Shown: positions 11,302 through 64,000, counted from the first letter of the stretch. The stretch is 64,000 nucleotides of DNA from an uncultured virus (IMG/VR IMGVR_UViG_2568526633_000001) (IMGVR_UViG_2568526633_000001); one strand, 5' to 3'. The notes: generated by a model not told the origin, from the letters alone. Numbers and translations are program-made.

Positions 11302-11888
11302 ATGGTCTCAGCAGAACTTAAAATTGAAGATAAACTGTGGGCAGCTGCCGATAAATTAAGAGGAAGCATGGATGCTTCAGAATATAAAAATGTTGTTTTA
11401 GGATTAATATTTTTAAAATATGTTTCAGATAGCTTTGAAGAAAAGTATGAAGAACTAACCAAAGATGAGTATGCAGACCCTGAAGATAAAGATGAATATT
11501 TGGCTGATAATATTTTTTGGGTACCGGCTGAAGCAAGATGGGAAAAAATCAATCGTGATGCTAAAACACCAAAAATTGGTGAAACGATTGATGAAGCGAT
11601 GATTGCGATTGAAAAAGAGAATCCATCATTGAAATTAGTACTCCCAAAGAATTATTCAAGGCCCCAATTAGATAAAACTCGTCTAGGAGAAACAGTTGAT
11701 TTAATTACTAACATTAAAGTAGGAGATTCAGAAAACCGTAAAACTGACACATTAGGAAGAACATATGAATATTTTCTTGGAAAGTTTGCCGGTGCTGAAG
11801 GTAAAAGCGGTGGTGAATTTTACACTCCAAACCCAGTAGTTACTTTGTTGGTTGAAATGTTAGAACCATATTCAGGACGTATTTATGA
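11302..11888 (+). pseudogene. hsdM: Type I R-M modification subunit, 5' fragment interrupted by the prophage
   Basis: [20 protein letters not shown] and GEFYTP motifs; homology stops at RIYD just before motif I, then the frame runs into phage DNA to a stop at 11943. Confidence 0.95.
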
Positions 11889-11913
11889 TATAATCACTTT
11901 GAAATTGATACAA
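11867..11913. other. attL (hsdM/prophage junction), GA core at 11887-11888
   Basis: hsdM homology ends at GA; phage arm TGATACAA at 11906-11913 lies 17 nt from the core. Confidence 0.85.
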
Positions 11914-12020
11914 ATAAACAGGCTTGAAATGGCTTGTTATTAGGGCTTTTCACTCGTATCCGTGAGTGGGAGGCCTTTTTATTTTGCCTTTTTCTGCCTT
12001 GGGGAGTTCAACCGATTTTC

Positions 12021-12050
12021 AGGGGGTGTGAGGGGTGTGTAGGGGGTGTA
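12021..12050 (+). repeat. Three tandem G-rich 10-mers near attL
   Basis: AGGGGGTGTG AGGGGTGTGT AGGGGGTGTA. Confidence 0.75.
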
Positions 12051-12308
12051 ACGGTTGCCAAAGTTCTCGGCTCACATTCATAATGCTATGCTTAACTTTG
12101 ACACAGATACAAACAGTAACCACTAGCTTGCTACCAGCCTTTCGTTACCCAAAATCTAATCAAATTGACTACTGTGTACTATATTCCATTCCCAAAAACC
12201 TCGTGTGAAATAATTTGATGTAGAATATCGAAACGGTAACTCTTTAATTTCATTGTGGAATTTTATTGTTCGTGATATGATTATATTGTAAAAGAGAGGA
12301 GGCCAAAA

Positions 12309-12767
12309 ATGAGAACGATTGATATTCTTCTAGAAAATTTAAGAAGGTATTATGGAGTAGATTCACTTCGAAATATAGCTAAGAAGATTGAAATGTCAGG
12401 TAATGTTCTGCTGAATTGGTCTTCAGGAAGAAGCTCCCCCAAATTAGATCAACTTGATAAAATTGCGTATCTCATTAATGTAGAGGTTTCTAAGCTGTTG
12501 ATTCAGGATATCGAGATAAGTATAACTTCCCCAATTTGGAGGGATAATGTTGAAAGAAACTTTATCGAGAATCTTGGGCGTTATACTCAAGAAAAGGGTA
12601 TTCACAAATCATGGTTTGATGAAAAGCGGTGCGGAGTAAGCTATGGGGCCTTCCGTTACTATATCAATGGGAATAATAAGACTGTAAATTTAAACACGTT
12701 AGATAAACTGGCAAAAATTTTAGGCATACAAACATATCAATTATTAGAAAGTAGGAAAAACAGATGA
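12309..12767 (+). CDS. Tandem XRE-HTH regulator (controller-like)
   Basis: Two HTH-like units (WSSGRSSPKLDQLDKIA; TLDKLAKILGI); ATGA overlap with the next gene. Confidence 0.8.
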   Translation: MRTIDILLENLRRYYGVDSLRNIAKKIEMSGNVLLNWSSGRSSPKLDQLDKIAYLINVEVSKLLIQDIEISITSPIWRDNVERNFIENLGRYTQEKGIHKSWFDEKRCGVSYGAFRYYINGNNKTVNLNTLDKLAKILGIQTYQLLESRKNR

Positions 12768-15151
12768 AGAAGAAAATTGAAACACAAGGGACTCGAAACA
12801 AGGTCAATCACGCATTAGCAGATGCAAAAAACTTGGTTCCTCGGTTGGTAAAAGAAACGTACACCTTCAAGGGTCGTAAATCACCTGAGCTTCTGGAACG
12901 TGTAATATTGGCTTTGACTGGTAGTGATTCCATTATATTAGATCCATTTTTGGGTAGCGGAATGACTTTAATCGCATCGCAAAACGCTCAACGTAAGTTC
13001 TTCGGAATTGAATTAGATAACTACACATACTCCGTGGATAAGACTCTGTTTGAAAAAGTAGATTCTAAGGAATTGAAGAAGCTTTTTAAACAAATAGAAG
13101 ATTCTGTCAAAGACCGAGTGATGTCTTTATATGAGACAGAATGCGATGGTGAAACAAATTATATTAAGAAGGTATTGTTTGATCGTAAAAATGGGAAGGA
13201 TGGTTACTTTCATCCTGAGGAAAATCGAGAAATTAAAAACGGGCGCAATGTTATCTTGATGAAGAAATCTTCCAAAGGCAATAGTTCTAAGAGATTTGAT
13301 GAAGTGGATTGGAATAAACTTCAAGAAGTTGAGAAAATGGATGCTAGCGGTTTCCCTGATGATACATATTATGAAAACAGTCGTATTAATATCACAAAAT
13401 CGACTGGTGCCGATAAGTATGGAGAAATTTTCTCGCACCGAAATAAAGTTGCACTATTAATGATTCAGAGTGAAATTTCAAAATTACCAACTTCGAAAGA
13501 AAAAGAATTTTTACAACAAGTTTTAGTTGCATCACTCAGTCTTGCCCGTATTGCCATGTATGGTAGCTCTACGGATATTCTATATCATGTTGTTCATGAA
13601 AAGGCGCAAGACATGAATGTTTGGTTTTTATTTGAGTCACGTTATAAAAAGTTTGTTACGTTTCAAACGGAATACAAAAGCATTTTAACAGATCATTTCG
13701 ATAAAGGTAGCACTTATAAAGTTGTTAATGCCGACTATTATGAGTACTTGAAGAATCACGAAGGCTTGATGTTTGATGCAATCGTTACTGACTTCCCATA
13801 TACTGACCAGGTGCCGTATTTGGAAAGAAATCAAATGTTTAGAATCTGGCTGAATCATTTTGATGATGACCGTGAGCATTTTATGCTGACAGAGAAGATG
13901 TTGGAAAGTGAAATGGTGGTAACTAATGCAGTTGCTAGAAAAGAGAAAGATTTAGACCATTATTATCATGACATTGATAAGATGTTTAAGACTTTTTCTG
14001 AACACTTGAAAGTTGGATCACCAGTGGTAATTTTTACGAAATTAGGAAAGATGAAGTATTTTAACGTTTTTGCCCGTGTTGTTGATTATGCACGAAAAAA
14101 CGGTTTTGAATATACTTTCCGTGTGGGTGTAGAGAAGAGCGATCCTACATTGCGCAAACAATCTGCATATAAAAATACTCTCATCAATGAGGTAGTCATT
14201 GGTTTTGAGAAACTTCCAGAATCCAAGCGCTATTTGTACATTGGCGACGAAAACTATGAAAGCAAATTAGTTGATGATATATATCGGGCGTTGAAGAAAG
14301 TTAAGGATGCCCCTTATACCATGACTGCAGCGGTTTCTAATGCAAAAAAAGAGCTAACCCAAAAAGGTGTGCATTTTGATGATACAATTCAACATCTGAT
14401 AGTTGAAGTAATCAAGAATAATTTTTACGTAGATGGCCAGGATATTCAATTGGATAAGACGAGACTCTATTTGGACCAAGAAGATGAAGATACCTTATTC
14501 AAAAAATTATACGACTTAGTCCCTTTTTACGTTGATAAATTACTGAAACAAAAAGGGAAATTCGTTCTGGAAGACCTGTATGTTGAGTTGATAGATGAGT
14601 TATCTGATGGTAATAACCGGACTTTATATGATTTGCTAAATGATGATGATAATATTGAAGGAATCAATAGGTTGGTTAGAGACAAGACTGATAAAAGTCC
14701 TGACGGTAAATACTACGTTAAAAAGCAACTTCCAAAAGATTTTAATGCTGATGCAATTGATGTGGCGACAATGGATGCTTATGACTTCGAAGATCTTTGT
14801 AAGTCATTGTTGGAACACGAAAACTATGCTGATGTTCATCGAAAAGGCGGTAGCGGAGATATGGGTGTGGACATCGTTGCGAAATGGTTTAACGGTAATA
14901 CAAGTGAGATATGGCTTGTGCAGTGTAAGCGGTGGGTAAACAAAGTTGATGCAACCCCAATCCAACGCTTAGTTTCAGAGCGTGAACGTCTTGGTGCTAA
15001 CAAGATTGCTTGCTATACTACATCTGATTACACTAAGGATGCGAAGAAAGTGGCAAAACTCCAAAATGTAGAGCTTGTAGACGGCAAAGAGCTGTTGATT
15101 AAGTTGAATCGATATTTCCCTGGCAAATACTACAACTCCAATTTGAAATAA
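12764..15151 (+). CDS. Amino-MTase-fold protein fused to a C-terminal Mrr-type restriction nuclease
   Basis: DPFLGSG (motif I), DFPY (variant motif IV); C-terminal DFEDL...GDMGVDIVA...VQCKRW...LVDG Mrr_cat. Confidence 0.85.
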   Translation: MKKKIETQGTRNKVNHALADAKNLVPRLVKETYTFKGRKSPELLERVILALTGSDSIILDPFLGSGMTLIASQNAQRKFFGIELDNYTYSVDKTLFEKVDSKELKKLFKQIEDSVKDRVMSLYETECDGETNYIKKVLFDRKNGKDGYFHPEENREIKNGRNVILMKKSSKGNSSKRFDEVDWNKLQEVEKMDASGFPDDTYYENSRINITKSTGADKYGEIFSHRNKVALLMIQSEISKLPTSKEKEFLQQVLVASLSLARIAMYGSSTDILYHVVHEKAQDMNVWFLFESRYKKFVTFQTEYKSILTDHFDKGSTYKVVNADYYEYLKNHEGLMFDAIVTDFPYTDQVPYLERNQMFRIWLNHFDDDREHFMLTEKMLESEMVVTNAVARKEKDLDHYYHDIDKMFKTFSEHLKVGSPVVIFTKLGKMKYFNVFARVVDYARKNGFEYTFRVGVEKSDPTLRKQSAYKNTLINEVVIGFEKLPESKRYLYIGDENYESKLVDDIYRALKKVKDAPYTMTAAVSNAKKELTQKGVHFDDTIQHLIVEVIKNNFYVDGQDIQLDKTRLYLDQEDEDTLFKKLYDLVPFYVDKLLKQKGKFVLEDLYVELIDELSDGNNRTLYDLLNDDDNIEGINRLVRDKTDKSPDGKYYVKKQLPKDFNADAIDVATMDAYDFEDLCKSLLEHENYADVHRKGGSGDMGVDIVAKWFNGNTSEIWLVQCKRWVNKVDATPIQRLVSERERLGANKIACYTTSDYTKDAKKVAKLQNVELVDGKELLIKLNRYFPGKYYNSNLK

Positions 15152-15156
15152 AATAA

Positions 15157-15191
15157 AAAATGGCGCCTTCTAAGCTTGAAGGTGCCATTTT
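15157..15191. terminator. Hairpin between the convergent R-M genes (bidirectional terminator)
   Basis: AAAATGGCGCCTTC / GAAGGTGCCATTTT. Confidence 0.7.
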
Positions 15192-18064
15192 GCTGAGTCT
15201 TTTTTCCAAATGAAATGTTCTTCGAAAATTTCAACTAGGGATTTATATTTTTTAGATAGTTGCTCTAGCCAACCGTTTTCAATCAGCATTTCCATGATGC
15301 CCAAGTCATAGAGTTCCGGTGTGCTTAAATCTCCGTGTTTTTCGAGAAGTTTTTTTGCTAACATAACTACTGAATCTTTAATATCTTCAACGGAGGTGGT
15401 AGTAATCGGTTTGGGAAGCGCTTGACGAGTATTTTCAAAGAAAAGTACAGCATCACCACTTAGCGATTTTTTAGGGCTTAGGATGTTTTTAACCGTCTTA
15501 GACTTCTTAATGTGTTCTTGGGAAATGAACTTAAATCCGTTGCTTTCAAGAATCTGTAGGAGCTTTACCCATACATCAAGGTTACTATCATGAAAGAAAA
15601 GACACATAATATTGTTTTCCTTCAATTTCCTTTTACACATCTCAAATACTTCATATAAAAGGGTGAAGTACTCATCTTTACCTTTGTTTCTTTCCGGGGC
15701 GGAAGATACAATGATTTCATCATGTAAGTTAAAACCAACACCAATAAAAGGTTTGTAAAGTTGCATATATTCAGAGTAGAGCACTTGGTCCATATATGGT
15801 GGATCAGTAATTATTAAGGAAACTGAATCATCTGGGATATCATCATTTGTAATGTACTGACTTCCTTTGGTTAATACCAAAGCATCATTCGCGTTAAGTT
15901 CTGAGTAATTCGAAGCCAATTTACCCTTTGCATAGTGTTGAGTAATATATTTTTTAGCTTGTACCAAATTCTTAATACGACGCCGCAATAAATCTATGAT
16001 ATTTTTTTCTACACAATTGCTTTTCGGAATCCATAGTGGCCATTGCGAATTAGAATGAGTATCAGTGATTTTTGCAAGATGCAGCATAGACATAAGCAGA
16101 TAGTTTAATACATTTCTATCCTCGTCCCTATCAGTAGCCTGAATATATTCCACAATTTCGTTTAACACAGAGAAATTTCGTGGAGTAAAAATATCGCTAA
16201 TTCTATCGGAAGCTCCGACAGCAATTTTACTATTCTGTATCAGTTGAACATTTGGAACAAATCGATCGTTTTCAACGGTGCTGAATTTAGAATAATCATC
16301 TTCATCAGGTTCTTTAACTCTTTTTTTGCAATTCGGGCAAGTGTAAGAGATAGCTTTTATGGAAAAACTATTTGTCGTTCGTTCTGGTTTGTCAAATACA
16401 ACTTTTGAAGTAATTCCAATTCCGCCACAGTTGTCACATTTGGTTTCGTAGTAATGCGATAAATCATTTAGTTTATTCTCTAGATTTGAAAATAATTGAT
16501 TTAAATCTGAATGAGGTATATCAGTTAGAATATTACTTGTGATGAATTTTGACATCTCATTTACATCACACCCTATTCCAATTCGATTCATGTTGCCCTG
16601 CACCGCTTCTAGTACTGTTACGCCAGAACCCATAAATGGATCGAAAACTATATCGTTTTCAGATGAAAGATGGCTTATTAAAGAGTCGATTACATTAAAA
16701 GACTTTTGCGACCAATATAAATGGGTATTGTATACCGGATTCTTTGAGGTGGGGGTGAGACTCTTGATTTCATTTTTTAATTCAATCAAGTCATATTGTG
16801 ATTTATGAACCTCTTGTCCGCAAAGTATTAAGTACTCAAATACTTCTTTAGCTGAGCTATTTCTATTGTTCGCGTGCTGATAGTCTTTAAGCTCAATTTG
16901 CACTCTCTTATTGCCGAATACACGTTTCGCAATATCTACCAATTCCTCAATAGAAACAGTATATCTATCGGTCTTTTGGTTTGATTCATCTTTAGGATAA
17001 GCATAACTTAAAGCGAGCACTACGCCGTTTTCGTGACAATAATTAAACAGTTCTTCCAAACGTCCTTTTGCGGTACTTTTTTTACTCAAGTCAGATTGAT
17101 TACGACCCTCGGTGTAAAGTCCTTTAGTAAACTTACCTCTCGAGATAGTTGGCTCCGGGTAATCATATTTAGCAGCGACATTTAACAGATGGTAGTACCT
17201 AGAATACTGCATGTCAGTATATGGAGGGTCAGCATATATTAACTTGATTCGTTGTTGGTTAAACTCTGAGTTTTTGAGGAGAGCGGACATGTCTTGATTA
17301 AATACTTTGCTTTTTTCAATAGGTTCAGACTCAGGGCTTTTTTTAATGAACTCATCTAATTTAGATTCAAAGTACGCAATAACATTTCTTTTTCTTTGCT
17401 TAAGATGACGAGTGCTATTTTTTTCGATGTTCAACGGCTGTGCCATATGGCCATCTTTTGAAAAAACTGTTTCGTTCATAGCATAAAACAAGCAGCTCAG
17501 TAATACATTCTGAGTTTCGACACTGTCCACTTCATGAATCGTTTTTATAATAGAATCAATTTGAACAGACTGTTCGATCCCAAAATAACTACCCGAGTAA
17601 TAATACAAGAACAAATTGTATTGATTATCTTTACCAAGCTGTTTATAATTAATCAGTTCATCTAATCCGTTCCATATTGTTGGGAAACTCTCGTATAAAG
17701 AAATTAACCCATTTGTAGAATCGGATACAAGAAGATTTCTTTCCTTTGCAACAGCCTCTTCATGACTTGAAAGTAACATTCGGAAATTTGTTTTATATCC
17801 TTTAAAAAAAGCTTCCTTAGCATTTAGTAGTGAACTGGTTGAAGGTGTGTTTAACAAAGAAGAAGAGATGATAGATGAGTATAACTCAGCATCATTTGCA
17901 ACTACAGAGTAGCTGCCTTTAAGGTAGGCGCCAACGCTCCCTGAACCAGCAAATAAATCGCATATATTTTCTCCAGGAGAAATGTACTTGCGAATATTTT
18001 CACTGATAAAGGGCATCAATGAAGCTTTATTTCCCTGGTAATTCAGTATTTTAATTAATTCCAT
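15170..18064 (-). CDS. Double DNA adenine methyltransferase (Dam/D12-like domain plus a second amino-MTase domain)
   Basis: YQGNK, DLFAGSG and DPPY in the N-half; DPFMGSG and DPPY in the C-half; AGGAGG RBS. Confidence 0.9.
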   Translation of the reverse strand: MELIKILNYQGNKASLMPFISENIRKYISPGENICDLFAGSGSVGAYLKGSYSVVANDAELYSSIISSSLLNTPSTSSLLNAKEAFFKGYKTNFRMLLSSHEEAVAKERNLLVSDSTNGLISLYESFPTIWNGLDELINYKQLGKDNQYNLFLYYYSGSYFGIEQSVQIDSIIKTIHEVDSVETQNVLLSCLFYAMNETVFSKDGHMAQPLNIEKNSTRHLKQRKRNVIAYFESKLDEFIKKSPESEPIEKSKVFNQDMSALLKNSEFNQQRIKLIYADPPYTDMQYSRYYHLLNVAAKYDYPEPTISRGKFTKGLYTEGRNQSDLSKKSTAKGRLEELFNYCHENGVVLALSYAYPKDESNQKTDRYTVSIEELVDIAKRVFGNKRVQIELKDYQHANNRNSSAKEVFEYLILCGQEVHKSQYDLIELKNEIKSLTPTSKNPVYNTHLYWSQKSFNVIDSLISHLSSENDIVFDPFMGSGVTVLEAVQGNMNRIGIGCDVNEMSKFITSNILTDIPHSDLNQLFSNLENKLNDLSHYYETKCDNCGGIGITSKVVFDKPERTTNSFSIKAISYTCPNCKKRVKEPDEDDYSKFSTVENDRFVPNVQLIQNSKIAVGASDRISDIFTPRNFSVLNEIVEYIQATDRDEDRNVLNYLLMSMLHLAKITDTHSNSQWPLWIPKSNCVEKNIIDLLRRRIKNLVQAKKYITQHYAKGKLASNYSELNANDALVLTKGSQYITNDDIPDDSVSLIITDPPYMDQVLYSEYMQLYKPFIGVGFNLHDEIIVSSAPERNKGKDEYFTLLYEVFEMCKRKLKENNIMCLFFHDSNLDVWVKLLQILESNGFKFISQEHIKKSKTVKNILSPKKSLSGDAVLFFENTRQALPKPITTTSVEDIKDSVVMLAKKLLEKHGDLSTPELYDLGIMEMLIENGWLEQLSKKYKSLVEIFEEHFIWKKDSAKWHLQA

Positions 18065-18084
18065 AACATCCCTCCTGACCATTA

Positions 18085-18113
18085 ATTATAACAAATGGCG
18101 CCTTATTTTTCAA
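18085..18113 (-). promoter_or_regulatory. SigA promoter of the double MTase
   Basis: TTGAAA-N17-TATAAT with extended TG on the minus strand. Confidence 0.75.
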
Positions 18114-18331
18114 GTTCAAATAGATTTTTCATGAAAATATTAACGCATCGTCTTTTTGTTGCATTCCAGTTTTTCTCAAGATATAAAATAAGACATAGGC
18201 TCGCTTTCGTGGCTAGCCTATGTCCTATATTTGTACTAAAATCCGAAAGTGCAAAAGCATTTTAGAAAATTAGTTAAGAGGGCTTAGAACACTTTCAATT
18301 AAAGTGTCCAATATTTTGCAATTAGATGGTA

Positions 18332-18556
18332 CTATCCAATCCCATCATCTATCCTCACGGTTTCCAGTATATCCTCAATGTCACAATCAAGTGCATCACA
18401 GATTCTGAGTAAAACATCGGTCGTGATGTTTTTTCCTTTGCCCAGTTTTGCAATCGAGGCTGGGCTGATATTGGCATGCTTACCCAGCTCAGATTTCGTC
18501 CACCCCTTATCAATTAGGAGCTTCCACAATTTGTTGTAGCTAATTGTTCTAGCCAA
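18332..18556 (-). CDS. Cro/C1-type HTH_26 regulator
   Basis: ISYNKLWKLLIDKG...ICDALDCDIEDILE family signature. Confidence 0.85.
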   Translation of the reverse strand: MARTISYNKLWKLLIDKGWTKSELGKHANISPASIAKLGKGKNITTDVLLRICDALDCDIEDILETVRIDDGIG

Positions 18557-21582: not shown

Positions 21583-21614
21583 AAACAACGCTCCCTTCAG
21601 CCACGAGAAAAAAT

Positions 21615-22628: not shown

Positions 22629-22638
22629 ATTTTTTGAA

Positions 22639-22927: not shown

Positions 22928-22931
22928 AAAC

Positions 22932-55339: not shown

Positions 55340-55351
55340 TGGGAGGGAACA

Positions 55352-55919: not shown

Positions 55920-55965
55920 GCGAAAGTCTAGATGCCTTTTTTGAATACAGAAATGGAGGAATGAC

Positions 55966-56382: not shown

Positions 56383-57292
56383 TAGTTTAGCCACAAAATA
56401 TGGCTTTCAATCGTTCCCTCACTACTCATCGGGACGTAGTGGGGCGAAGGTCAATAAAATCGTCATCCATCACATGGCAGGCACGAACTATGACATCGTG
56501 CCAAGTATCTGGCAGACCCGTGAGGCCTCAGCGCATTACGGGATTGGCAAAAACGGAGAAATTCGTGCCTATGTGGATGAAAACAATACGGCATGGCACG
56601 CGGGTAACTGGAATGCCAATATCTCGAGTATTGGGATTGAAAACTGCAACTCCAATGGCTCACCATCATGGAGTGTGAATCAAGCCACCATTGATGCGTG
56701 CGCCAAGTTAGTGGCGGATATCGCCAAACGTCACGGTCTTGGAAAGCTAGTGGTGAATCAGAACTTGTTCCCACACAGCTATTTTTCAAGCACCTCGTGT
56801 CCCGGTGTTCTTTTAGATAAACTGCAGTACATTGCGGACAAAGCAAACGCGATTAATACTGGTGGCGGTTCATCAACTCCAAGCAAGCCAACCGCAGGAC
56901 TTTATCGTGTTCGAAAATCATGGGCGGATGCCAAGACTCAGATCGGAGCATTCAAGGATCTAGCGAATGCCAAAGCCTGCGCTGACCGAAACAAAGGCTA
57001 TTCTGTCTATGATGAATCCGGAAAGGCTATTTATCCAACAGGTGGCGGTTCATCAACCCCAACAACCAAGAAACTCGTGGTCCAAGTGAACGGCTTGAAT
57101 GTCCGTAATCGTCCTTCACTCAGTGGCACGGTAGTCGGTACTTATAACAAGGGCGCGACATGGACACTGCCCAAGTCAGAACAACTGACAATCGCGGATG
57201 GTTGGGTATGGGCTCGTTGTCCTATCGGCTATTGTGCCGTCGGGAAGAATACTGGCAAGACTGAGCCGGATGACTATATCTTAATTTCATAG
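56372..57292 (+). CDS. Endolysin, Amidase_2 with C-terminal cell-wall-binding domains (including SH3b-like)
   Basis: IVIHH, SAHY, AWHAG, SIGIE, TSCPG; YRVRKSW and LNVRNRPS domains. Confidence 0.92.
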   Translation: MGISSLATKYGFQSFPHYSSGRSGAKVNKIVIHHMAGTNYDIVPSIWQTREASAHYGIGKNGEIRAYVDENNTAWHAGNWNANISSIGIENCNSNGSPSWSVNQATIDACAKLVADIAKRHGLGKLVVNQNLFPHSYFSSTSCPGVLLDKLQYIADKANAINTGGGSSTPSKPTAGLYRVRKSWADAKTQIGAFKDLANAKACADRNKGYSVYDESGKAIYPTGGGSSTPTTKKLVVQVNGLNVRNRPSLSGTVVGTYNKGATWTLPKSEQLTIADGWVWARCPIGYCAVGKNTGKTEPDDYILIS

Positions 57293-57302
57293 CCAAACGA
57301 AT

Positions 57303-57344
57303 AAACCTGCAAGAGTGATTAATTTCATTCTTGCAGGCTTTTTT
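57303..57344 (+). terminator. Terminator after the lysis module
   Basis: CCTGCAAGAGTG / CATTCTTGCAGG plus T-run. Confidence 0.8.
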
Positions 57345-57356
57345 GCTTTTTTTCAG

Positions 57357-57392
57357 AGTTAGGGTTTACTTTTTGAGATTTTCGACGCCTGT
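57357..57392 (+). promoter_or_regulatory. Conserved 36-bp motif, copy 3
   Basis: AGTTAGGGTTTACTTTT-TGA-GATTTTCGACGCCTGT. Confidence 0.85.
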
Positions 57393-57412
57393 AACTTGAG
57401 GAGGGATAACCC

Positions 57413-57817
57413 ATGAACGAGTTACAGAAAGAAAAAATCAAAGAATTAAGGAAATCAGGCTATGGCTACAAACGAGTGGCTACTGAATTGGGAATATCCA
57501 TTAACACCATAAAATCATTTTGTAGAAAAGAAGGGCTTAATGGAGTTAAGGGAACAGTTCGGTCACTAGATGTCTGTCTTACCTGTGGATCTGCTTTGCC
57601 AATATCAAAAACCAAGAAACGAAAATTCTGTTCTAAAGAATGCCGTGAGAAGTGGTGGAGCAAAAATCGAAATAAACTAAATAAGAAGAAGGCTCGAATC
57701 GAACATTGCCTATCTTGTGGCAAGGAAATGAGACTTTATGAGTTTGAAAAGCGGAAATTTTGCTCTCATGCTTGCTACATTGAATCACGATTCGGAGGTG
57801 GTGCTCATCATGAATAA
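57413..57817 (+). CDS. HTH plus Zn-finger protein upstream of the recombinases (possible directionality factor)
   Basis: GYGYKRVATELGISINTIKSFC HTH; two CxxC...FCS..C units. Confidence 0.7.
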   Translation: MNELQKEKIKELRKSGYGYKRVATELGISINTIKSFCRKEGLNGVKGTVRSLDVCLTCGSALPISKTKKRKFCSKECREKWWSKNRNKLNKKKARIEHCLSCGKEMRLYEFEKRKFCSHACYIESRFGGGAHHE

Positions 57818-57974
57818 GCAACTTATCCGGAATGAAATGCTATATCAAATGAGCATTCAACCTGCCAAAATCATGCTTGAAAAAAGTCTCATCACCAAGG
57901 TGGAGTTCAAGAAAATGAAGGCCTTCCTCCTTCAGAAATATGAGCCGATAATCCCGTCATTATTGGATTTATGA
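57810..57974 (+). CDS. SHOCT-like small protein
   Basis: MLEKSLITKVEF...LLQKYEP. Confidence 0.6.
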   Translation: MNKQLIRNEMLYQMSIQPAKIMLEKSLITKVEFKKMKAFLLQKYEPIIPSLLDL

Positions 57975-58005
57975 CTTGATATAAGTGTCGAAAAGAGTGA
58001 TGTAT
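57974..58005 (+). promoter_or_regulatory. Second conserved motif, copy 2
   Basis: ACTTGATATAA-N10-GAGTGATGTAT. Confidence 0.65.
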
Positions 58006-58032
58006 AGGTGTGTAGGAAGGAGGATTTACACC

Positions 58033-59805
58033 ATGAAGGTAATACAAAAGATTGAACCGACAAAGCCTAAAATCGCCAAGCGAAAACGTGTGGCAGCCTA
58101 TGCTCGGGTCTCCGTTGATAAGGGCAGAACCATGCACTCACTCTCGGCACAGGTCAGTTACTACTCAAAACTGATTCAGAAGAACCCTGATTGGGAATAC
58201 GTGGGTGTTTACTCAGATGGCGGAATTTCAGGAAGAACAACTGAATCCAGAAATGAATTTAAGCGCCTCATCAAAGACTGTAAGGACGGCAAGGTGGATA
58301 TTATCCTAACGAAGTCCATCAGCCGATTTGCGAGGAACACTGTTGATTTGTTGGAAACCGTCCGCGATCTCAGAGCCATTAACGTTGAGGTGCGGTTTGA
58401 GAAAGAGAATATCCACTCCCTCAGTGGTGATGGTGAGCTGATGCTTTCAATCTTGGCATCTTTCGCTCAAGAAGAAAGTCGCAGTATCTCCAACAACATC
58501 AAATGGTCAATTCAGAAACGGTTTAAGGAAGGTAAACACAATGGACGTTTTAACATTTACGGTTATCGTTGGGTGGGGCAGGAGTTGATAGTTGAACCGA
58601 GTGAAGCTGAGAACATCAAGTTGATGTACGCAAACTACATGAACGGTTTGTCCGCAGAGTTCACAGCAAAGCAACTCACGAAAATGGGCGTGACAGCCAT
58701 GAAGGGTGGACCATTTAAGGCAACATCTGTCAGGCAAATCTTGAAGAACATCACTTACACGGGCAACCTACTTTTACAAAAGGAGTATACGCCAGATCCT
58801 ATAACAGGAAAATCGAGATATAACAACGGTGAAATGCCACAATACTTTGTTGAGAATCATCATGAAGCAATTATCCCTATGGAGGAATGGCAGGCGGTTC
58901 AAGATGAGCGGTTGAAACGAAGAAAACTCGGTGCTCGTGCTAATAAGTCGATTAACACCACTTGTTTTACATCAAAAATAAAGTGCGGAAACTGCGGCAA
59001 GAATTTCAGACGAAGTGGAAAACGGCAAGGGAAAAATAAAGAGCTTTATCATATTTGGATTTGTCGTAACAAAAGCGAGAAAGGTGTGAAAGTCTGTAAT
59101 GCTCGGAATATTCCAGAGCCTGCTCTCAAAAAGTATGCAACTGAAGTTCTTGGTTTAGAAGTGTTTGATGAACAAATTTTCATAGACTCGATTGAAGAAA
59201 TCGTTGCCTCAGAAGGGAATATGTTGCAGTTCAAGTTTTATGGGGGCAGAGAGGTTGAGGTTAAATGGACATCTACGGCTCGCAAGGATTACTGGACGCC
59301 AGAGGTCAGACGGGCTTGGAGTGAACGGAACAAACGTAAGGAAAGTAGAACTTGGAACGGCAGAACGACAGAATTCACAGGTTTTGTAGTTTGCGGACGA
59401 TGTGGAGCCAATTATCGAAGGCAAGCTGTAACGTCTAAAACGGATGGCACAGTCAGAAGAAAGTGGCACTGTTCAAATTCAGCTGTAGCTTGTAATGAGG
59501 GTAAGAGTCGAAATTGCATCTACGAAGAGGATTTAAAGGTAATGGTTGCAGAGATTCTTGGAATTCCAACATTCAATGAACCAACAATGGATGAAAAGCT
59601 ATCTCGAATCAGTATCATCGACACTGAAGTAACTTTTCATTTTAAAGATGGTCATGATGAAGTCAGAACTTTTGAGATACCTAAAAAGAAGGCGAGAACC
59701 TTTTCAGAAGAAGAACGTGCCAGGCGAAGATTAGTTATGAAGAAACGATGGGAGGAGAAGAAACGTGACGAAGAAAGTAACAACGATACCAGCGACAATC
59801 ACTAA
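58033..59805 (+). CDS. Large serine recombinase 1 (duplicated Zn-ribbon)
   Basis: YARVS, SISRFARN, recombinase domain, two CGxCG...WxC units. Confidence 0.93.
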   Translation: MKVIQKIEPTKPKIAKRKRVAAYARVSVDKGRTMHSLSAQVSYYSKLIQKNPDWEYVGVYSDGGISGRTTESRNEFKRLIKDCKDGKVDIILTKSISRFARNTVDLLETVRDLRAINVEVRFEKENIHSLSGDGELMLSILASFAQEESRSISNNIKWSIQKRFKEGKHNGRFNIYGYRWVGQELIVEPSEAENIKLMYANYMNGLSAEFTAKQLTKMGVTAMKGGPFKATSVRQILKNITYTGNLLLQKEYTPDPITGKSRYNNGEMPQYFVENHHEAIIPMEEWQAVQDERLKRRKLGARANKSINTTCFTSKIKCGNCGKNFRRSGKRQGKNKELYHIWICRNKSEKGVKVCNARNIPEPALKKYATEVLGLEVFDEQIFIDSIEEIVASEGNMLQFKFYGGREVEVKWTSTARKDYWTPEVRRAWSERNKRKESRTWNGRTTEFTGFVVCGRCGANYRRQAVTSKTDGTVRRKWHCSNSAVACNEGKSRNCIYEEDLKVMVAEILGIPTFNEPTMDEKLSRISIIDTEVTFHFKDGHDEVRTFEIPKKKARTFSEEERARRRLVMKKRWEEKKRDEESNNDTSDNH

Positions 59806-61339
59806 ATTCAGTCAGACACCAATTAACCGTGTCACCAAAAGACGAGTGGCGGCTTACGCTCGTGTGTCAACTGAACAAGAAGAACAGCAGACTAGCTATG
59901 AGGCGCAGATTGATTACTACACCAACTACATTAGCGGTCGGGAGGATTGGGAGTTTGCGGGCATGTATTCGGACGAAGGCATCAGTGCGACCAACACCAA
60001 GAAACGTGTTGGCTTTCAAACCATGGTGACGGATGCCTTGGACGGCAAGATTGACTTGATTGTCACGAAAAGTGTCAGCCGTTTTGCCCGCAACACTGTT
60101 GACTCCTTAACCACGGTTCGCCAACTCAAGGAAAAAGGGGTCGAGATTTATTTCGAGAAAGAAAATATCTGGACACTTGACTCCAAGGGCGAACTCCTCA
60201 TCACGATTATGTCGAGCTTGGCTCAAGAGGAAAGTCGAAGTATTTCTGAGAACGTGGTTTGGGGTCAGAGAAAACGATTCGCTGACGGCAAAGTGACCGT
60301 CCCGTTCAAACGTTTCTTGGGTTATGACATGGGTGAGGATCGAAACTTGGTGGTCAACCCTGAGCAAGCCAAGCTCGTCAAACGGATTTATGGGATGTTC
60401 CTTCAAGGCAAAGCCCCGCATACGATAGCGAAGATCCTGACGGAAGAACCAGAAACACTGACACCCGCAGGCAAGCAGAAGTGGAATCCATCCACGATTA
60501 AATCCATCCTGACCAATGAGAAGTACAAGGGTGATGCCTTACTGCAGAAGTCCTACACAGTCGACTTCCTTACTAAAGAGAAGAAAGCCAACGAAGGAGA
60601 AATCCCTCAATACTACGTCAAGGGCAACCACGAAGCCATTATCCAACCTGAGATATTTGACATGGTTCAAAAACAGATGGCTTTACGCACCAAGGGAAAT
60701 AATCGCAGGCGTTCGACCAGCATATTTTCAAGTAAACTGATCTGCGGAGACTGCGGCAACTTTTATGGCTCTAAGGTTTGGCATAGCAATACCAAATACC
60801 GCAGAACCGTCTGGCGGTGTAACCACAAATACGGGAATGACGAGAAGTGTCAAACGCCACATTTGACTGAGGATGAAATCAAGGAAATCTTCATCAAGGC
60901 GACCAACCAATTGGTGGATATGAAAGACGAGGTCATCAGCAACTATGACGAGATGAAGGAGATGTTGTTCGGAACGGTTGACCTTGAAAGCGAGCAAGGA
61001 AAACTTGAAGATGAGCTTAACGAAGTCGCTAGCTTAATTGAGGACTGTATTAACGAGAATGCCAGAGTCGCACTCGACCAATCGGAATACGAGAAACGGT
61101 ATAACAGCTTTGTGGAACGGTTCGACAAAGCGAACGGACGGCTAGAGGAAGTCAAGGTGCAAATTACCGAACGCCAGGCACGAGGGCAACAAATCGAGAT
61201 ATTCTTAAAAGACCTGGAGGAGGTTGGTGTGCTCGAGGAATTCGAAGATGATTTATTCCTTGCATTGGTTGAAAACATTGAGGTTGGAAGGTATAAAGTG
61301 GTGGTCCGGTTCAAGGATGGCACTGAGGTGGAAGGTTAA
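59765..61339 (+). CDS. Large serine recombinase 2
   Basis: YARVST, SVSRFARN, CGDCG Zn ribbon, coiled coil. Confidence 0.93.
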   Translation: MTKKVTTIPATITKFSQTPINRVTKRRVAAYARVSTEQEEQQTSYEAQIDYYTNYISGREDWEFAGMYSDEGISATNTKKRVGFQTMVTDALDGKIDLIVTKSVSRFARNTVDSLTTVRQLKEKGVEIYFEKENIWTLDSKGELLITIMSSLAQEESRSISENVVWGQRKRFADGKVTVPFKRFLGYDMGEDRNLVVNPEQAKLVKRIYGMFLQGKAPHTIAKILTEEPETLTPAGKQKWNPSTIKSILTNEKYKGDALLQKSYTVDFLTKEKKANEGEIPQYYVKGNHEAIIQPEIFDMVQKQMALRTKGNNRRRSTSIFSSKLICGDCGNFYGSKVWHSNTKYRRTVWRCNHKYGNDEKCQTPHLTEDEIKEIFIKATNQLVDMKDEVISNYDEMKEMLFGTVDLESEQGKLEDELNEVASLIEDCINENARVALDQSEYEKRYNSFVERFDKANGRLEEVKVQITERQARGQQIEIFLKDLEEVGVLEEFEDDLFLALVENIEVGRYKVVVRFKDGTEVEG

Positions 61340-61463
61340 GTTAAATTGGGTTGAGGCACTCTTGCTTGATGGCGGGAGTGCTGTTTTTGTGGTATTCAAG
61401 AAAGCGTCTACGTGATATAATATATCGGATAAGGTACTAGAGAAGGGTTAAGGAGTAGAAGAA

Positions 61464-63506
61464 ATGGAATCAAATCCACGAAAACTATTAGATGAGTTTA
61501 TTCCTGAAGCAATGGGAAAACAATTTGTTATCCCGGTATATCAAAGAAAATATACCTGGACGGTAAAAAAGCAGCTGGTTCAACTGATGAAAGATTTGGT
61601 TGGGCTTATTGAAGATGAGACGAATCAAAAACAGCATTTTTTAGGTACAATCGTTTACCTTGAAAATGTTGTGGATTATAAAACTGAGCGATCTATTGTT
61701 GATGGACAACAGCGGTTAGTGACTATGTTTTTGATTGCTCATGCGATGAAATCAATCTCTGAAAATGAGTACCGTGCAAGGGAAATTGATGAAACATATC
61801 TTCAAAATTATGCTGAGCAAGTTGGAAGTAGATACCGCCAACGGCTGTATCCTTCTGTGGCAGATGGGAACGATTATCTGATTATTGCAGAGGGCAGATA
61901 TGATGAGATAAATAAAGACAGCGCCAGTAATATCGTTCAGAACTTTCTGTACTTGCGAACAGAGTTAAAGGATCTGGTCGAAGAATATACGTTTGATAGA
62001 GTACTTTATGCACTGAAACGATTTTCTATTGTTTATATTAAATTAGATGACCGCGATAATGCACAGCAAATTTTTGAAAGTATCAATTCTACCGGTGAAA
62101 GATTGACTGCCTCGGATTTGATTCGAAACTTCATCATGATGGATAAATCGAATGAAGAGCAGACTACGCTTTATACTAAATATTGGCGTCGGTTGGAAGA
62201 AGTCTTTGATAATTCTAAAGGAATGGAAGACTTTTTCAGATACTACCTTGCTGCAATAATTGGGGAGTATTCAGCAAAGCATATTCTTTATCAAGCATTC
62301 AAAGACTATTGGCATAAAGAGCGCGAGGTATCAAGTGATGCCGAATTGCTCCAAAAATTAGTACGATATGCTGGTTATTTTGCGAGACTTTACTATAACA
62401 AACCTGAAGGAAAATACTCAGAAGTATTGAGTGATTTCCAAAGCATGGAAAGTATGATGCCTGCACCTTTTGTTTTGGGATTATCTGAATGGTACTATCA
62501 TGACCAATTTATCACTGAAGACCAATATATTGATGCGATTAAGGTAGTGAATGATTATCAGCTTCGGAGATATTTTAATGGGGATGATACAAGCAGAGTG
62601 TCAAAAGCATTTCCTTCATATTTGAAAAATGTTAGGAAGTACGCTAAAGCTAATGGATATGAAAATATCGTTGATATTGTAATTTATGTTCTTGTTACTA
62701 GAAATCAATCAAATAATATGGCACTTCCATCTGACAAGGCATTGAAATCTAATCTATTGAATGCCAATGCTTATGCGATGAGATTGGCCCGTTGGTTACT
62801 TGAAAAAATAGAGAATCGTGAAAATTCAGCAACACTTGATATGAGTAACTTGTCCATTGAACACATCATGCCACAGACTAGTACTTCATATTGGGAAGAG
62901 AAGGCTGGTACATCGGGGGAAGAATACACAGGATTAGTAAATACCATTGGTAATTTAACACTCGTTACAAAGCCTGATAATTCGGCCGCGGGAAATAAAG
63001 ACTTTGAGACCAAAAAGAAAATCTTTGAAGATACCCTTCATATTCGTATGAATAAAGATTTGTACGAATTGACTGAGTGGACATCATCGGATATTTCTGC
63101 CAGAAGTGAAGCTCTAATCAATGAACTGATTACTATGTATCCCTATTTGAGATCGTCGGGCGACTATGAACACGATGGTAATAGAGAAATTTTCTTAGAG
63201 GCACAAGGAATAAAGGCAACTGGGTATTTGAACGAAGACGAGACTGTGATTATACATTCAGGTTCAGAAATCTATTCTAAGATTAAAGATATTGCATCTG
63301 ATTCGTTAGATGAAACTCGCCAAGAGCTGTTGGATAATGGAATCATTGAAGAAACAATTGGGGGACTACAATTTGTTCAAGATTACACTGCCTCATCTGT
63401 TTCGAATGCAGCAGCTCTGCTGTTAGGGGGGAGCCGAAATGGTTGGGACTACTGGAAAGATGATAACGGAATAAGTATTAATGATTCGCTAAGAAATAAG
63501 AAATAG
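61464..63506 (+). CDS. GmrSD-like (DUF262 + DUF1524 HNH) modification-dependent nuclease with C-terminal DUF4357-like domain
   Basis: IPVYQR.Y.W, VDGQQR, IFESINSTG, SIEHIMPQ, IGNLTL; C-terminal SSVSNAA...GGSRNGWDYWK. Confidence 0.88.
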   Translation: MESNPRKLLDEFIPEAMGKQFVIPVYQRKYTWTVKKQLVQLMKDLVGLIEDETNQKQHFLGTIVYLENVVDYKTERSIVDGQQRLVTMFLIAHAMKSISENEYRAREIDETYLQNYAEQVGSRYRQRLYPSVADGNDYLIIAEGRYDEINKDSASNIVQNFLYLRTELKDLVEEYTFDRVLYALKRFSIVYIKLDDRDNAQQIFESINSTGERLTASDLIRNFIMMDKSNEEQTTLYTKYWRRLEEVFDNSKGMEDFFRYYLAAIIGEYSAKHILYQAFKDYWHKEREVSSDAELLQKLVRYAGYFARLYYNKPEGKYSEVLSDFQSMESMMPAPFVLGLSEWYYHDQFITEDQYIDAIKVVNDYQLRRYFNGDDTSRVSKAFPSYLKNVRKYAKANGYENIVDIVIYVLVTRNQSNNMALPSDKALKSNLLNANAYAMRLARWLLEKIENRENSATLDMSNLSIEHIMPQTSTSYWEEKAGTSGEEYTGLVNTIGNLTLVTKPDNSAAGNKDFETKKKIFEDTLHIRMNKDLYELTEWTSSDISARSEALINELITMYPYLRSSGDYEHDGNREIFLEAQGIKATGYLNEDETVIIHSGSEIYSKIKDIASDSLDETRQELLDNGIIEETIGGLQFVQDYTASSVSNAAALLLGGSRNGWDYWKDDNGISINDSLRNKK

Positions 63507-63526
63507 AGCATGGAGGTGGTGTTAGG

Positions 63527-63811
63527 TTGGATAAGAACAAACTAAGATATGCAATTATGAAATTGCGTGATGAAAAAAAGAACCCTTTTATTGAGCTTGA
63601 AGGGCAAGTGCCAAAAGAAGATATTTTAGAACAAACAAAAATTCTTTCGCGCAACGACTTACTAGAATCCATGGTTTGGGCGGATAACACAGTTCATATC
63701 TGGGGGAATGTTTCTCTGGAAGGGGAAAAATATTTAGTTGAAAACTCCGGTCTTGCTAAGGCGTATGCATTGGCAAAAGAAGTTAAAGATTGGATTCCAT
63801 TTTGGAGCTAA
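63527..63811 (+). CDS. YjcQ-like small protein
   Basis: KLRYAI...EGEKYLVENS..AKAY. Confidence 0.7.
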   Translation: MDKNKLRYAIMKLRDEKKNPFIELEGQVPKEDILEQTKILSRNDLLESMVWADNTVHIWGNVSLEGEKYLVENSGLAKAYALAKEVKDWIPFWS

Positions 63812-63830
63812 GATAAGTTTTTAAACGGAG

Positions 63831-63866
63831 AAGGCAGCAAATCATAATTGGTTTGTTGCCTTTTTT
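63831..63866 (+). terminator. Terminator at the right end of the prophage
   Basis: AAGGCAGCAAA / TTTGTTGCCTT plus T-run. Confidence 0.75.
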
Positions 63867-63880
63867 GATTGCCCAAAAAG

Positions 63881-63960
63881 AAAAATGACAAAGTATCGAG
63901 AAAAATGACAAAGTATCGAGAAAAATGACATAGTACACGGGAAAAATAACATTGTATCAC
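63881..63960 (+). repeat. Tandem 20-bp repeats running into attR
   Basis: AAAAATGACAAAGTATCGAG twice (perfect), then two degenerate copies. Confidence 0.85.
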
Positions 63961-64000
63961 CGACAACGTCTAAATAGACCCATGTTGTGGAGCAGGGGGG
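63952..64000. other. attR (prophage/hsdM junction), GA core at 63977-63978
   Basis: Phage arm TTGTATCA at 63952-63959 lies 17 nt from the core. Confidence 0.85.
63977..64000 (+). pseudogene. hsdM: Start of the 3' fragment of hsdM (runs off the window)
   Basis: GAC CCA TGT TGT GGA GCA GGG GGG = DPCCGAGG, exactly the motif I missing after RIYD. Confidence 0.88.

What the first reader, a model, noticed from the sequence alone, without database searches (positions are those of the whole stretch)
11867..64000. Prophage splits hsdM inside the SAM-binding motif: a candidate reversible switch for host type I R-M
Seen: hsdM stops at ...GRIY-GA (11887-11888) and resumes at GA-C CCA TGT TGT GGA (63977), so excision gives an in-frame RIYDPCCGAGG. 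The rebuilt attP is TTGTATCA-N17-GA-N17-TGATACAA, exactly symmetric about a 2-bp core. Known: large serine integrases use 2-bp cores with symmetric attP arms, and gene-interrupting prophages can act as excision switches. Inference: lysogeny silences the resident type I R-M while the element supplies its own defences. Both recombinases look intact while the tail is broken, so the element may now work as an on/off switch for the host methylome.
Basis: partly seen in the sequence, partly recalled or inferred. Interest (0 to 1): 0.82.

Follow-up and report, generated by a model that had tools for sequence, protein, structure and literature searches.

The report
Prophage that integrates into DNA-methylase motifs
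A 52-kb prophage sits exactly inside the cofactor-binding motif of a restriction-system methylase gene, and the same phage and its relatives hit that same short motif in many different DNA methylase genes, so its integrase appears to use this motif as a portable landing site.

Summary
hsdM stops at GA 11887-88 and resumes at GA 63977-78. The two ends carry TTGTATCA/TGATACAA, each 17 nt from the GA. Intact alleles elsewhere read ...GRIYDPCCGAGGMF....

The insert (11889-63976) is a siphovirus-type prophage with two tandem large serine recombinases.

New here: a 99.95% identical copy in genome G001 splits a different hsdM (29% identical N-terminus) at the same Asp codon. In run X11 the same phage starts at the same base next to a type III Mod-like gene.

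Among 74 inserted junctions of relatives, 37 lie in DNA methyltransferase genes just before a D-P motif: 19 by Pfam, 13 by motif plus a PDB check, 5 by motif only. Five of five relatives examined have both gene halves. So the attB is the DNA encoding this motif.

The window copy has a frameshift and a stop in its tape-measure gene; G001's copy does not.

hsdM knock-out is well supported, and reversal by precise excision follows from the sequence. A regulated "switch" has no support. hsdM was already a known target of serine-integrase ICEs. The phage context, the motif-level site and the spread across methylase classes look new.

The parts
11302..11888 (+). hsdM 5' part (195 codons plus the GA of the Asp codon); the frame reads on into the phage end to a stop at 11943
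   Evidence: Pfam HsdM_N 1.5e-28 and N6_Mtase profile positions 2-53 of 311. 100% identical to residues 1-195 of intact 507-aa alleles.
11887..11888 (+). GA crossover dinucleotide at attL
   Evidence: contigs of X11 and X15 begin to match at 11887.
11889..11913 (+). P' arm of attP: 17 nt followed by TGATACAA
   Evidence: Homologous arms in 41 relatives.
11942..11977 (+). terminator-like hairpin just inside the phage left end
   Evidence: 16 pairs followed by a T run.
11889..63976 (+). prophage, about 52.1 kb
   Evidence: 99.95% identical over 52,063 bp to the copy on G001 contig C15, with homology ending at both junctions. Gene content.
12309..12767 (+). HTH regulator at the left end
   Evidence: Pfam HTH_26/HTH_3; PHROG transcriptional regulator.
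12764..15151 (+). methyltransferase-Mrr_cat fusion (cargo)
   Evidence: Pfam Mrr_cat 2e-25 and N6_N4_Mtase; PADLOC MTase_II.
15170..18082 (-). 970-aa multi-domain DNA methyltransferase (cargo)
   Evidence: Pfam N6_N4_Mtase and MethyltransfD12; PADLOC PglX-like and MTase_II.
18557..21660 (-). three-gene ABC-3C-type module (DUF2326, MC7, CTD11)
   Evidence: Pfam; weak PADLOC LmuB/PDC-M68B.
23246..32754 (+). replication module (DUF2800 nuclease, Enc34-type SSB, family A polymerase, Rha, D5-type primase, VRR-NUC, SNF2 helicase)
   Evidence: Pfam.
34087..43350 (+). packaging and head module (TerS, SAM-synthetase-N-like ORF, ParB-methylase, TerL, portal, ClpP-type protease, capsid)
   Evidence: Pfam.
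47374..49128 (+). tape-measure gene, first piece; 1-bp deletion at 49067 relative to G001
   Evidence: PHROG phrog_58 positions 170-825.
49284..49934 (+). tape-measure gene, second piece; an in-frame TAG at 49257-49259 precedes it (CAG in G001)
   Evidence: PHROG phrog_58 positions 876-1022. The G001 gene is open for 853 aa.
50532..57292 (+). distal tail (Dit), tail tip/endopeptidase (1354 aa), holin, amidase
57985..59805 (+). Int1, large serine recombinase (606 aa)
   Evidence: Pfam Resolvase, Recombinase and Zn_ribbon_recom. YARVS motif and one difference (I359T) from G001.
59765..61339 (+). Int2, large serine recombinase (524 aa); overlaps Int1 by 41 nt
   Evidence: Pfam. 41% identical to Int1. 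N-terminal domain matches PDB 3g13 at 2.9e-43. Identical in G001.
61464..63506 (+). GmrSD-type nuclease with DUF4357 (cargo)
   Evidence: Pfam; PADLOC Orf5/HEC-06 at 3.7e-98.
63527..63811 (+). small YjcQ-like ORF
   Evidence: Pfam YjcQ 2.9e-6.
63826..63867 (+). strong hairpin followed by a T run (terminator-like) before attR
   Evidence: -25.6 kcal/mol, z -5.1. Not called by the consensus scan.
63879..63951 (+). 20-bp tandem repeat, 3.6 copies, running into the P arm; G001 has one copy fewer
63952..63976 (+). P arm of attP: TTGTATCA followed by 17 nt
   Evidence: Homologous arms in relatives.
63977..64000 (+). GA core at attR and the first 8 codons of the hsdM 3' part (DPCCGAGG)
   Evidence: Matches residues 196-203 of the intact alleles.

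Best explanation
Window positions 11889-63976 are a temperate siphovirus-type prophage. It integrated by conservative site-specific recombination, catalysed by its tandem pair of large serine recombinases (Int1 and Int2).

The phage site is TTGTATCA-N17-GA-N17-TGATACAA. The host site is the DNA that encodes the end of a hydrophobic strand followed by Asp-Pro in an N6-adenine DNA methyltransferase. Crossover occurs at the GA of the Asp codon.

Here the host gene is a type I hsdM. It is cut between ...GRIY and DPCCGAGG, which is the SAM-binding motif I. This leaves a 195-residue N-terminal stump and a promoterless 3' part behind phage terminators.

HsdM is needed for both methylation and restriction in type I systems (established knowledge). 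The lysogen is therefore inferred to be r-m- for this system. Precise excision would restore the gene.

The site is not specific to this hsdM. The same phage uses at least three methyltransferase genes, and its integrase family uses dozens. The motif therefore works as a widely available, non-essential landing pad whose use also disarms R-M systems.

The window copy has recently lost its tape-measure gene and probably cannot make infectious particles.

Shown: the anatomy, the junctions, the multiple targets and the tail lesions. Inferred: the loss of R-M function, polarity on hsdS/hsdR, the need for both recombinases, and excision competence.
For: - Junctions and arms.
- Gene content.
- Second target: the G001 copy is 99.95% identical over 52,063 bp, with homology ending at the junctions. 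It lies in an hsdM whose N-terminus is 29% identical to the window's, cut at ...SVF|DPTMGSGS, with an intact 303-aa 3' ORF followed by an hsdS start.
- Third target: the X11 contig (2 differences in 8.1 kb) starts at 11887, and its host side reads ...YAGKVKLILI|. This is the pattern of fragments that align to type III Mod structures up to residue 122/123. A 3' fragment from relative L005 starts at residue 123/124.
- Relatives: of 160 loci, 137 had enough flank, giving 83 distinct junctions. Nine are intact attP and 74 are inserted. Of the 74, 19 lie in methyltransferase genes by Pfam. The 5' parts end at N6_Mtase profile position ~42-53 of 311, and the 3' parts start at position 52 (Eco57I/N6_Mtase) or position 7 of N6_N4_Mtase. 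A further 13 are Mod-like by motif and 5 are methylase-like by motif only.
- Near-identical integrases (93-99%) sharing one arm sit in hsdM, Mod-like and other methylase genes.
- In 5 of 5 long records, both halves of the split hsdM lie on one strand 16-59 kb apart, with matching attL and attR and open 3' ORFs of 295-689 aa.
- Intact alleles of the window's hsdM exist and read through the junction as predicted.
- Terminator-like hairpins lie inside both phage ends.
- Tail lesions.
Against: - No functional data: excision, methylation loss and the requirement for both recombinases are all untested.
- The 3' part of hsdM, hsdS and hsdR of this genome could not be seen. Polarity is argued from a 79%-identical plasmid homologue with the order hsdM-hsdS-hsdR.
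- Not all relatives hit methylases. 18 junctions are in serine-recombinase genes of other elements, 1 in an amidase, 1 in an LRR gene, 1 is a doubtful rumA-like case and 16 are unclassified.
- Host half-sites share little DNA sequence beyond an AT-rich run, GA, and YCC plus GG. How the site is recognised is unexplained.
- 18 of the 37 methylase calls rest on motifs rather than on a domain hit.
- The tape-measure lesions could be assembly errors. I could not check them against reads.
Confidence: 0.8

Rival explanations
1. One reading: the element is now a regulated, reversible on/off switch of the host type I R-M (active lysogeny, like A118 in comK or SPbeta in spsM). It would excise without killing the cell when R-M is needed and re-integrate afterwards.
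For: - Precise excision would restore hsdM in frame.
- The recombinases are intact while the tape-measure gene is broken. Excision need not end in infectious particles.
- Ambroset 2016 (PMC4701971, passages and section 23 read) speculated the same for ICEs in hsdM.
Against: - There is no sign of domestication. There are only 26 differences from an intact copy in another genome (2 at the host edge and 6 in the repeat region), and only the two tape-measure lesions are disabling.
- The same phage lies in three different methylase genes.
- Intact alleles are common.
- The lysis genes are intact.
- No directionality factor or host-signal link was identified.
- Only contigs, not reads, were available, so excision could not be looked for.
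Confidence: 0.12
2. Adaptive anti-defence by integration: the integrase family has been selected to hit R-M methyltransferase genes because knocking them out benefits the element (for example by opening the host to kin elements), not merely because the motif is a convenient conserved site.
For: - The targets span type I, type III-like and other methylases, always at the D-P motif.
- For type I and type III systems the M/Mod subunit is required for restriction as well (established knowledge). A knock-out therefore disarms without self-restriction.
- The phage brings replacement defence genes.
Against: - Relatives also hit non-defence genes with D-[PD]-x-x-G-type motifs, namely serine recombinases and Amidase_3. 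This fits sequence-driven targeting.
- Durrant 2022 (PMC10083194, passages read) found no enrichment of LSR targets in or near defence genes overall.
- Integration comes after the incoming DNA has already escaped restriction.
- No fitness data.
Confidence: 0.3
3. Loose, transposon-like multi-targeting (as in TndX-like or Cp36-type LSRs), with the methylase hits being coincidental.
For: - Host half-sites are weakly conserved at the DNA level.
- One phage uses at least three targets.
Against: - The break falls at the same codon of the same protein motif in 37 of 74 junctions and in all three sites of this phage.
- Neither Int1 nor Int2 has the DUF4368 domain that marks the multi-targeting clade in Durrant 2022.
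Confidence: 0.04

Closest known systems
ICEs with serine-integrase triplets inserted in hsdM (ICE 10750-RD.2 of S. pyogenes; Tn1549-family ICEs of streptococci)
   Same: Large serine recombinases encoded in tandem, insertion inside hsdM, and very short duplications of 2-8 bp (PMC1949102 passage; PMC4701971 section 23; PMC7563491 passages). Some of my relatives carry a third LSR.
   Different: Here the element is a phage rather than a conjugative element, and it has two recombinases, not three. The site is pinned to the Asp codon of motif I. The same element also uses a second, unrelated hsdM and a Mod-like gene. The integrase cassette occurs in both orientations relative to the target, whereas the paper reports a single orientation.
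Gene-interrupting prophages with serine integrases (A118/phi10403S in comK, SPbeta in spsM, skin in sigK): active lysogeny
   Same: An LSR, insertion inside a coding sequence, and precise restoration on excision (SPbeta: PMC5499854, abstract seen in a listing; A118: as cited in PMC4701971).
   Different: Those elements have one fixed target gene and an excision tied to a host programme. Here there are several target genes, and no regulatory link is known.
Multi-targeting LSR clade (TndX-like, DUF4368; for example Cp36) of Durrant et al. 2022
   Same: Closely related recombinases found in different target gene clusters (PMC10083194, passages).
   Different: There is no DUF4368 domain. The targets are not AT-rich degenerate sites but one protein-motif position. 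Methyltransferases are not mentioned in that paper's main text (0 occurrences). I did not open its supplements.
CcrA/CcrB of SCCmec (recalled, not from a call)
   Same: Two different large serine recombinases encoded side by side, acting on a site inside a methyltransferase gene (rlmH).
   Different: That target is an rRNA methyltransferase, a single site at the gene's 3' end that does not inactivate it, and the element is not a phage.

Membership tests
Large serine recombinase (phage/ICE integrase) | N-terminal Resolvase domain with catalytic serine, then Recombinase domain and zinc ribbon | tested here: met
   Both Int1 and Int2 match Pfam PF00239, PF07508 and PF13408. Both have the ...YARVS... 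motif. PDB matches to conjugative-transposon recombinase, SPbeta and TP901-1 integrases.
Large serine recombinase (phage/ICE integrase) | 2-bp non-palindromic crossover with inverted attP arms, and no long duplication | tested here: met
   GA is the only sequence shared by both junctions. The arms lie 17 nt from it on each side. Intact attP of this form appears in 9 relatives.
Large serine recombinase (phage/ICE integrase) | Excision needs a directionality factor | not testable with these tools
   No candidate identified.
Type I R-M methyltransferase HsdM | HsdM_N domain plus N6_Mtase domain with motif I (DPxCGxGG) and motif IV (NPPF) | tested here: met
   The 5' part matches Pfam HsdM_N and the start of N6_Mtase. 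The first 8 codons of the 3' part read DPCCGAGG. Intact 100%-identical alleles carry ...ANPPFN.... The 3' part of this genome lies beyond the window.
Type I R-M methyltransferase HsdM | Adjacent hsdS and hsdR | not testable with these tools
   Own assembly not held. In G001 an hsdS start follows the 3' part before the contig ends. A 79% homologue has the order hsdM-hsdS-hsdR.
Active-lysogeny switch (A118-comK type) | Insertion interrupts a gene and precise excision restores it | tested here: met
   by sequence only.
Active-lysogeny switch (A118-comK type) | Excision without lysis, triggered by a host condition, followed by re-integration or maintenance | not testable with these tools
   Only contigs of public runs were available.
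Active-lysogeny switch (A118-comK type) | Stable, conserved occupancy of one locus across a lineage | tested here: not met
   The same phage at 99.95% identity occupies three different genes. Many intact alleles exist. One further organism does share this junction (X14).
hsdM-targeting ICEs with serine-integrase triplets | Three tandem serine integrases and a conjugation module | tested here: not met
   The window has two integrases and a full phage structural module, with no conjugation gene among the ORFs scanned.
Multi-targeting LSR clade (Durrant 2022) | DUF4368 domain; more than 3 target gene clusters per 90% LSR cluster | tested here: inconclusive
   DUF4368 is absent. Three target genes are seen for this phage. 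Relatives at 93-99% identity hit at least 3 classes.

The most novel reading that the evidence does not exclude
A widespread family of paired serine integrases in Firmicutes phages and islands has evolved to read the DNA encoding the catalytic or SAM-binding Asp-Pro motif of N6-adenine DNA methyltransferases (type I HsdM, type III Mod, type IIG and others). Integration would then itself be an anti-restriction act that disarms whichever R-M system the new host carries. Tail-defective derivatives such as this one could persist as excisable cassettes that toggle a host's R-M and methylome.
Probability: 0.3. Interest if true: 0.82.

Novelty: new variant of a known kind. Interest (0 to 1): 0.64.

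Why it matters
- **A new route to broad host range.** If an integrase family uses a protein-motif-encoding sequence shared by most DNA adenine methylases as its attB, any bacterium with such a gene offers a landing site. This is a different solution from tRNA targeting.
- **Consequences for the host.** Lysogeny would change the host's restriction barrier and methylome. That affects gene flow in enterococci and gut Firmicutes and can be tested by methylome sequencing.
- **A natural resource for study.** The system offers one integrase pair with many attB variants. This helps in working out how serine integrases read attB, and it gives a recombinase with ready-made sites in many bacteria.
- **The "switch" idea** stays a hypothesis, but a cheap one to test.

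Tried and rejected
- **Own genome:** not held. Everything beyond 64000 is unknown. I used G001 and relatives instead.
- **Reference phages:** no megablast match for the integrase end. Only 12 weak partial matches (60-80%) for the structural region.
- **Host flank:** not found in 400 of 401 sampled genomes of G001's family. Only a 214-bp plasmid match. The host is therefore not defined by DNA. Names come only from protein sources.
- **My first tblastn query** ended at the junction by construction, so I re-checked truncation directly. One apparent hit (L037) was an intact hsdM; a second hsdM in that locus is the split one.
- **PDB searches** with the L110 and L101 fragments gave nothing. Those classes rest on motif reading.
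- **Consensus terminator scan** found nothing near attR, although folding shows a strong hairpin.
- **Public runs** were contigs only, so rare excision products cannot be seen. The X15 loose end at 11887 was not among the rows shown, and X7 pieces did not visibly bridge the junction. No conclusion is drawn from these.
- **Distinct half-sites for Int1 and Int2:** in five relatives the two attP arms match each other at about 11 of 17 inner positions by eye, and in the window at about 8 of 17. I therefore dropped the idea.
- **phiEr670-like prophages** (PMC12785378, passages) target rlmD with a single recombinase and are a different family.
- **Complex prediction and structure prediction** were not used. 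A pass for two serine-recombinase catalytic domains would reflect likeness to solved dimers.

Full report
**Observation**

The hsdM reading frame starts at 11302 and carries HsdM_N and the first ~50 positions of N6_Mtase. It runs to ...GGA CGT ATT TAT GA at 11887-88. At the other end, GA at 63977-78 is followed by C CCA TGT TGT GGA GCA GGG GG up to the window end.

On the phage side of each GA there are 17 nt and then the 8-mer: TGATACAA at 11906-13 and TTGTATCA at 63952-59. This 8-mer occurs only 7 times on both strands of the window, so the mirror-image placement is not chance.

Intact 507-aa alleles, 100% identical to the 195-residue fragment, exist in public data. Sources name these proteins as type I M subunits of several Enterococcus species.

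**What the insert is**

Positions 11889-63976 encode, in order:
- a left-end HTH regulator;
- a methylase-Mrr fusion, a 970-aa methylase and a three-gene ABC-3C-type module;
- a replication module (DUF2800 nuclease, Enc34-type SSB, family A polymerase, D5-type primase, VRR-NUC, SNF2);
- small and large terminase, portal, ClpP-type protease and capsid;
- connectors, major tail, tape measure, Dit and a 1354-aa tail-tip protein;
- holin and amidase;
- two large serine recombinases whose genes overlap by 41 nt;
- a GmrSD-type nuclease and a small YjcQ-like ORF.

Int1 and Int2 are 41% identical. Both keep the catalytic-serine motif. No close relative is in the reference phage collection.

**Independent definition of the ends**

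The window's own assembly is not held. Genome G001 carries the same prophage on contig C15: 99.95% identity over 52,063 bp, with homology running only from 11879 to 63981.

The G001 flanks are a different hsdM. Its N-terminal part is 29% identical in protein to the window's. It is cut at ...KLFSVF|DPTMGSGS..., at the same Asp codon. Its 3' part is an open 303-aa ORF followed by the start of an hsdS gene before the contig ends.

Public-run contigs add a third site. In X11 a 33.7-kb contig matches the window from 11887 onward with 2 differences in 8.1 kb. Its upstream letters translate to ...YAGKVKLILI|. In X15 a 60-kb contig also breaks at 11887, but its flank was not among the rows shown. In X14, a differently labelled organism, a 25-kb contig bridges the window's own junction.

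**The target is a motif, not a gene**

I fetched 160 loci encoding relatives of Int2 (58-100% identity): 80 from genomes across Clostridia, Bacilli and Erysipelotrichia, and 80 from viral contigs.

The Int1-Int2 pair is present in 144 of the 160. Thirteen of the 16 exceptions have under 1 kb upstream of Int2, so their contigs probably end before Int1.

137 loci have at least 200 nt beyond the last recombinase. In 86 of these (83 distinct sequences) the arm TTGTATCA, with at most one mismatch, is followed at 17 nt by GA or TC. Of the 83:
- 9 are intact attP sites of the form arm-N17-core-N17-arm;
- 74 are junctions with host DNA.

The 74 junctions break down as follows:
- 17 are HsdM_N/N6_Mtase 5' parts whose Pfam match ends at about profile position 42-53 of 311.
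- 2 are 3' parts: L024 starts at N6_Mtase position 52 (DPACGSG...), and L005/L086 starts at N6_N4_Mtase position 7 (DPPYNTG...).
- 13 end in ...K-V-K-x-I-Y-I|.
- 5 end in a methylase-like ...xxTP...| pattern, by motif only.
- 18 are serine-recombinase genes of other elements. The 15 with a Resolvase-domain match all start at profile position 39. Two (L074, L075) match only the zinc ribbon, and one (L020) is called by motif.
- 1 is an Amidase_3 gene starting at DPGHGG.
- 1 is an LRR gene.
- 1 is a doubtful rumA-like case.
- 16 are unclassified.

The ...KVKxIYI| class is type III Mod-like. The L010 fragment aligns to two solved Mod proteins up to residue 122/123. The L005 3' fragment begins at residue 123/124 of the same chains, so both fragments meet at the same peptide bond.

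Eight relatives share one identical arm, and their Int2 homologues are 93-99% identical. They sit in hsdM (2), Mod-like (5) and another methylase-like gene (1).

In five long records I searched the whole genome for N6_Mtase. All five have the 5' part (profile 2 to ~52) and a 3' part (profile from 47-51) on the same strand, 16-59 kb apart. Their attL reads ...Y|GA plus arm. Their attR reads arm plus GA|YCC..., giving DP(C/A/T)CGS.... The 3' ORFs are open for 295-689 aa.

**How it most likely works**

The pair of serine recombinases joins the phage attP to a host site centred on the GA of the Asp codon in (hydrophobic)-D-P. This is motif I of gamma-class enzymes such as HsdM and motif IV (DPPY) of Mod-like enzymes.

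Host half-sites share little DNA. The left side has an AT-rich run before GA, with T or A at position -5 and A frequent at -9. The right side has YCC and GG doublets. What exactly is read remains open.

The integrase cassette occurs in both orientations relative to attP polarity. In the window, G001 and L005 it lies next to the arm that joins the 3' gene part. In the 35 methylase 5' junctions of relatives it lies next to the other arm and reads toward the 5' part.

Why two recombinases are needed is unknown. The arms are fairly symmetric in relatives, so I do not claim separate half-site specificities.

**Consequence for the host**

The stump lacks the whole catalytic domain. A terminator-like hairpin lies just inside the left phage end. 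A strong hairpin (-25.6 kcal/mol, z -5.1) precedes attR.

HsdM is required for both modification and restriction in type I enzymes (established knowledge). The lysogen should therefore lack this system.

In the nearest annotated homologue, a 79%-identical gene on an E. faecium plasmid, the order is hsdM, hsdS segments with a tyrosine recombinase, then hsdR, all on one strand. Polarity is therefore plausible, but only by analogy.

**State of the prophage**

The alignment of the window and G001 copies shows 26 differences: 2 at the host-side edge, 6 in the repeat region near attR, and 18 within the phage proper.

Two of them disable the tape-measure gene in the window:
- a 1-bp deletion at 49067, not in a homopolymer;
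- TAG instead of CAG at 49257.

G001's tape-measure gene is open for 853 aa. Int2 is identical in the two copies and Int1 differs at one residue (I359T).

The defect is very recent. The same phage has lately moved between three insertion sites. That argues for an active temperate phage lineage rather than a domesticated switch.

**Comparison with what is known**

hsdM as a target of serine-integrase elements is in print:
- ICE 10750-RD.2 of S. pyogenes (PMC1949102, passage);
- ICEs with serine-integrase triplets in streptococci (PMC4701971, passages and section 23; PMC7563491, passages). The first of these also speculates that such ICEs might excise when the gene is useful.

Durrant et al. 2022 (PMC10083194, passages) classify LSRs as site-specific or multi-targeting. 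They do not mention methyltransferases in the main text (0 occurrences) and report no enrichment of targets in defence genes. I did not open their supplements.

Six full-text searches turned up no description of any of the following:
- a prophage in hsdM;
- the motif-level position of the site;
- one element using type I and type III-like methylase genes.

The library holds only open-access papers and bioRxiv, so this is not proof of absence.

**Verdict**

The more interesting result is the landing site. A conserved methylase motif is used across gene families by one phage and by a large integrase family.

Noticed in passing
window 63879-63951: A 20-bp tandem repeat (3.6 copies) runs straight into the P arm, and its last unit contains the TTGTATCA arm itself. 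G001 has one copy fewer. These could be extra protein-binding sites next to attP.
   Followed up: partly
window 1-11300: The host flank looks like an island: a tyrosine-integrase fragment (1-573), a small resolvase (3320-3892) and a BspA-type LRR protein (2112-2972). Intact hsdM alleles that are 96-100% identical over the 195-residue fragment carry the names of at least seven Enterococcus species. The R-M system itself seems to be mobile.
   Followed up: partly
L011, L029, L034, L035, L044, L047, L054, L056, L062, L064, L065, L080, L122, L148, L161 (junctions downstream of Int2): A sub-group of relatives is inserted into serine-recombinase genes of other elements, always at Resolvase profile position 39 (D|DGxSG). 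Many of those target genes carry DUF4368. This is element-in-element stacking that inactivates a rival's integrase.
   Followed up: partly
window 12764-18082 and 35537-36787: The phage's own three methyltransferase genes contain six D-P motif sites of the kind its integrase family targets. None is occupied here.
   Followed up: no
window 46662-47306: A DUF1643 gene with no PHROG match sits between the tail-chaperone region and the tape-measure gene. It looks like a moron.
   Followed up: no
window 34688-36787: An ORF with an S-adenosylmethionine-synthetase N-terminal-like region is followed by a ParB-methyltransferase, between the small and large terminase genes.
   Followed up: no
L173 (E. 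faecium plasmid pW142) 6001-13521: The closest annotated homologue of this hsdM (79%) belongs to a type I system with several hsdS segments and a tyrosine recombinase between them. That is a phase-variable specificity locus.
   Followed up: no
G403:C1:4214307-4231410 (loci L181, L186): In this genome the two halves of the split hsdM are only about 16 kb apart. The same integrase pair and site are therefore also used by a much smaller element than a 50-kb phage.
   Followed up: no
L167, L169, L171 (G001 contigs C7, C27, C19): G001 has three further open methylase genes with D-P-x-C-G-S-G motifs that are not occupied. Their DNA around the motif is much more GC-rich than the occupied site.
   Followed up: no
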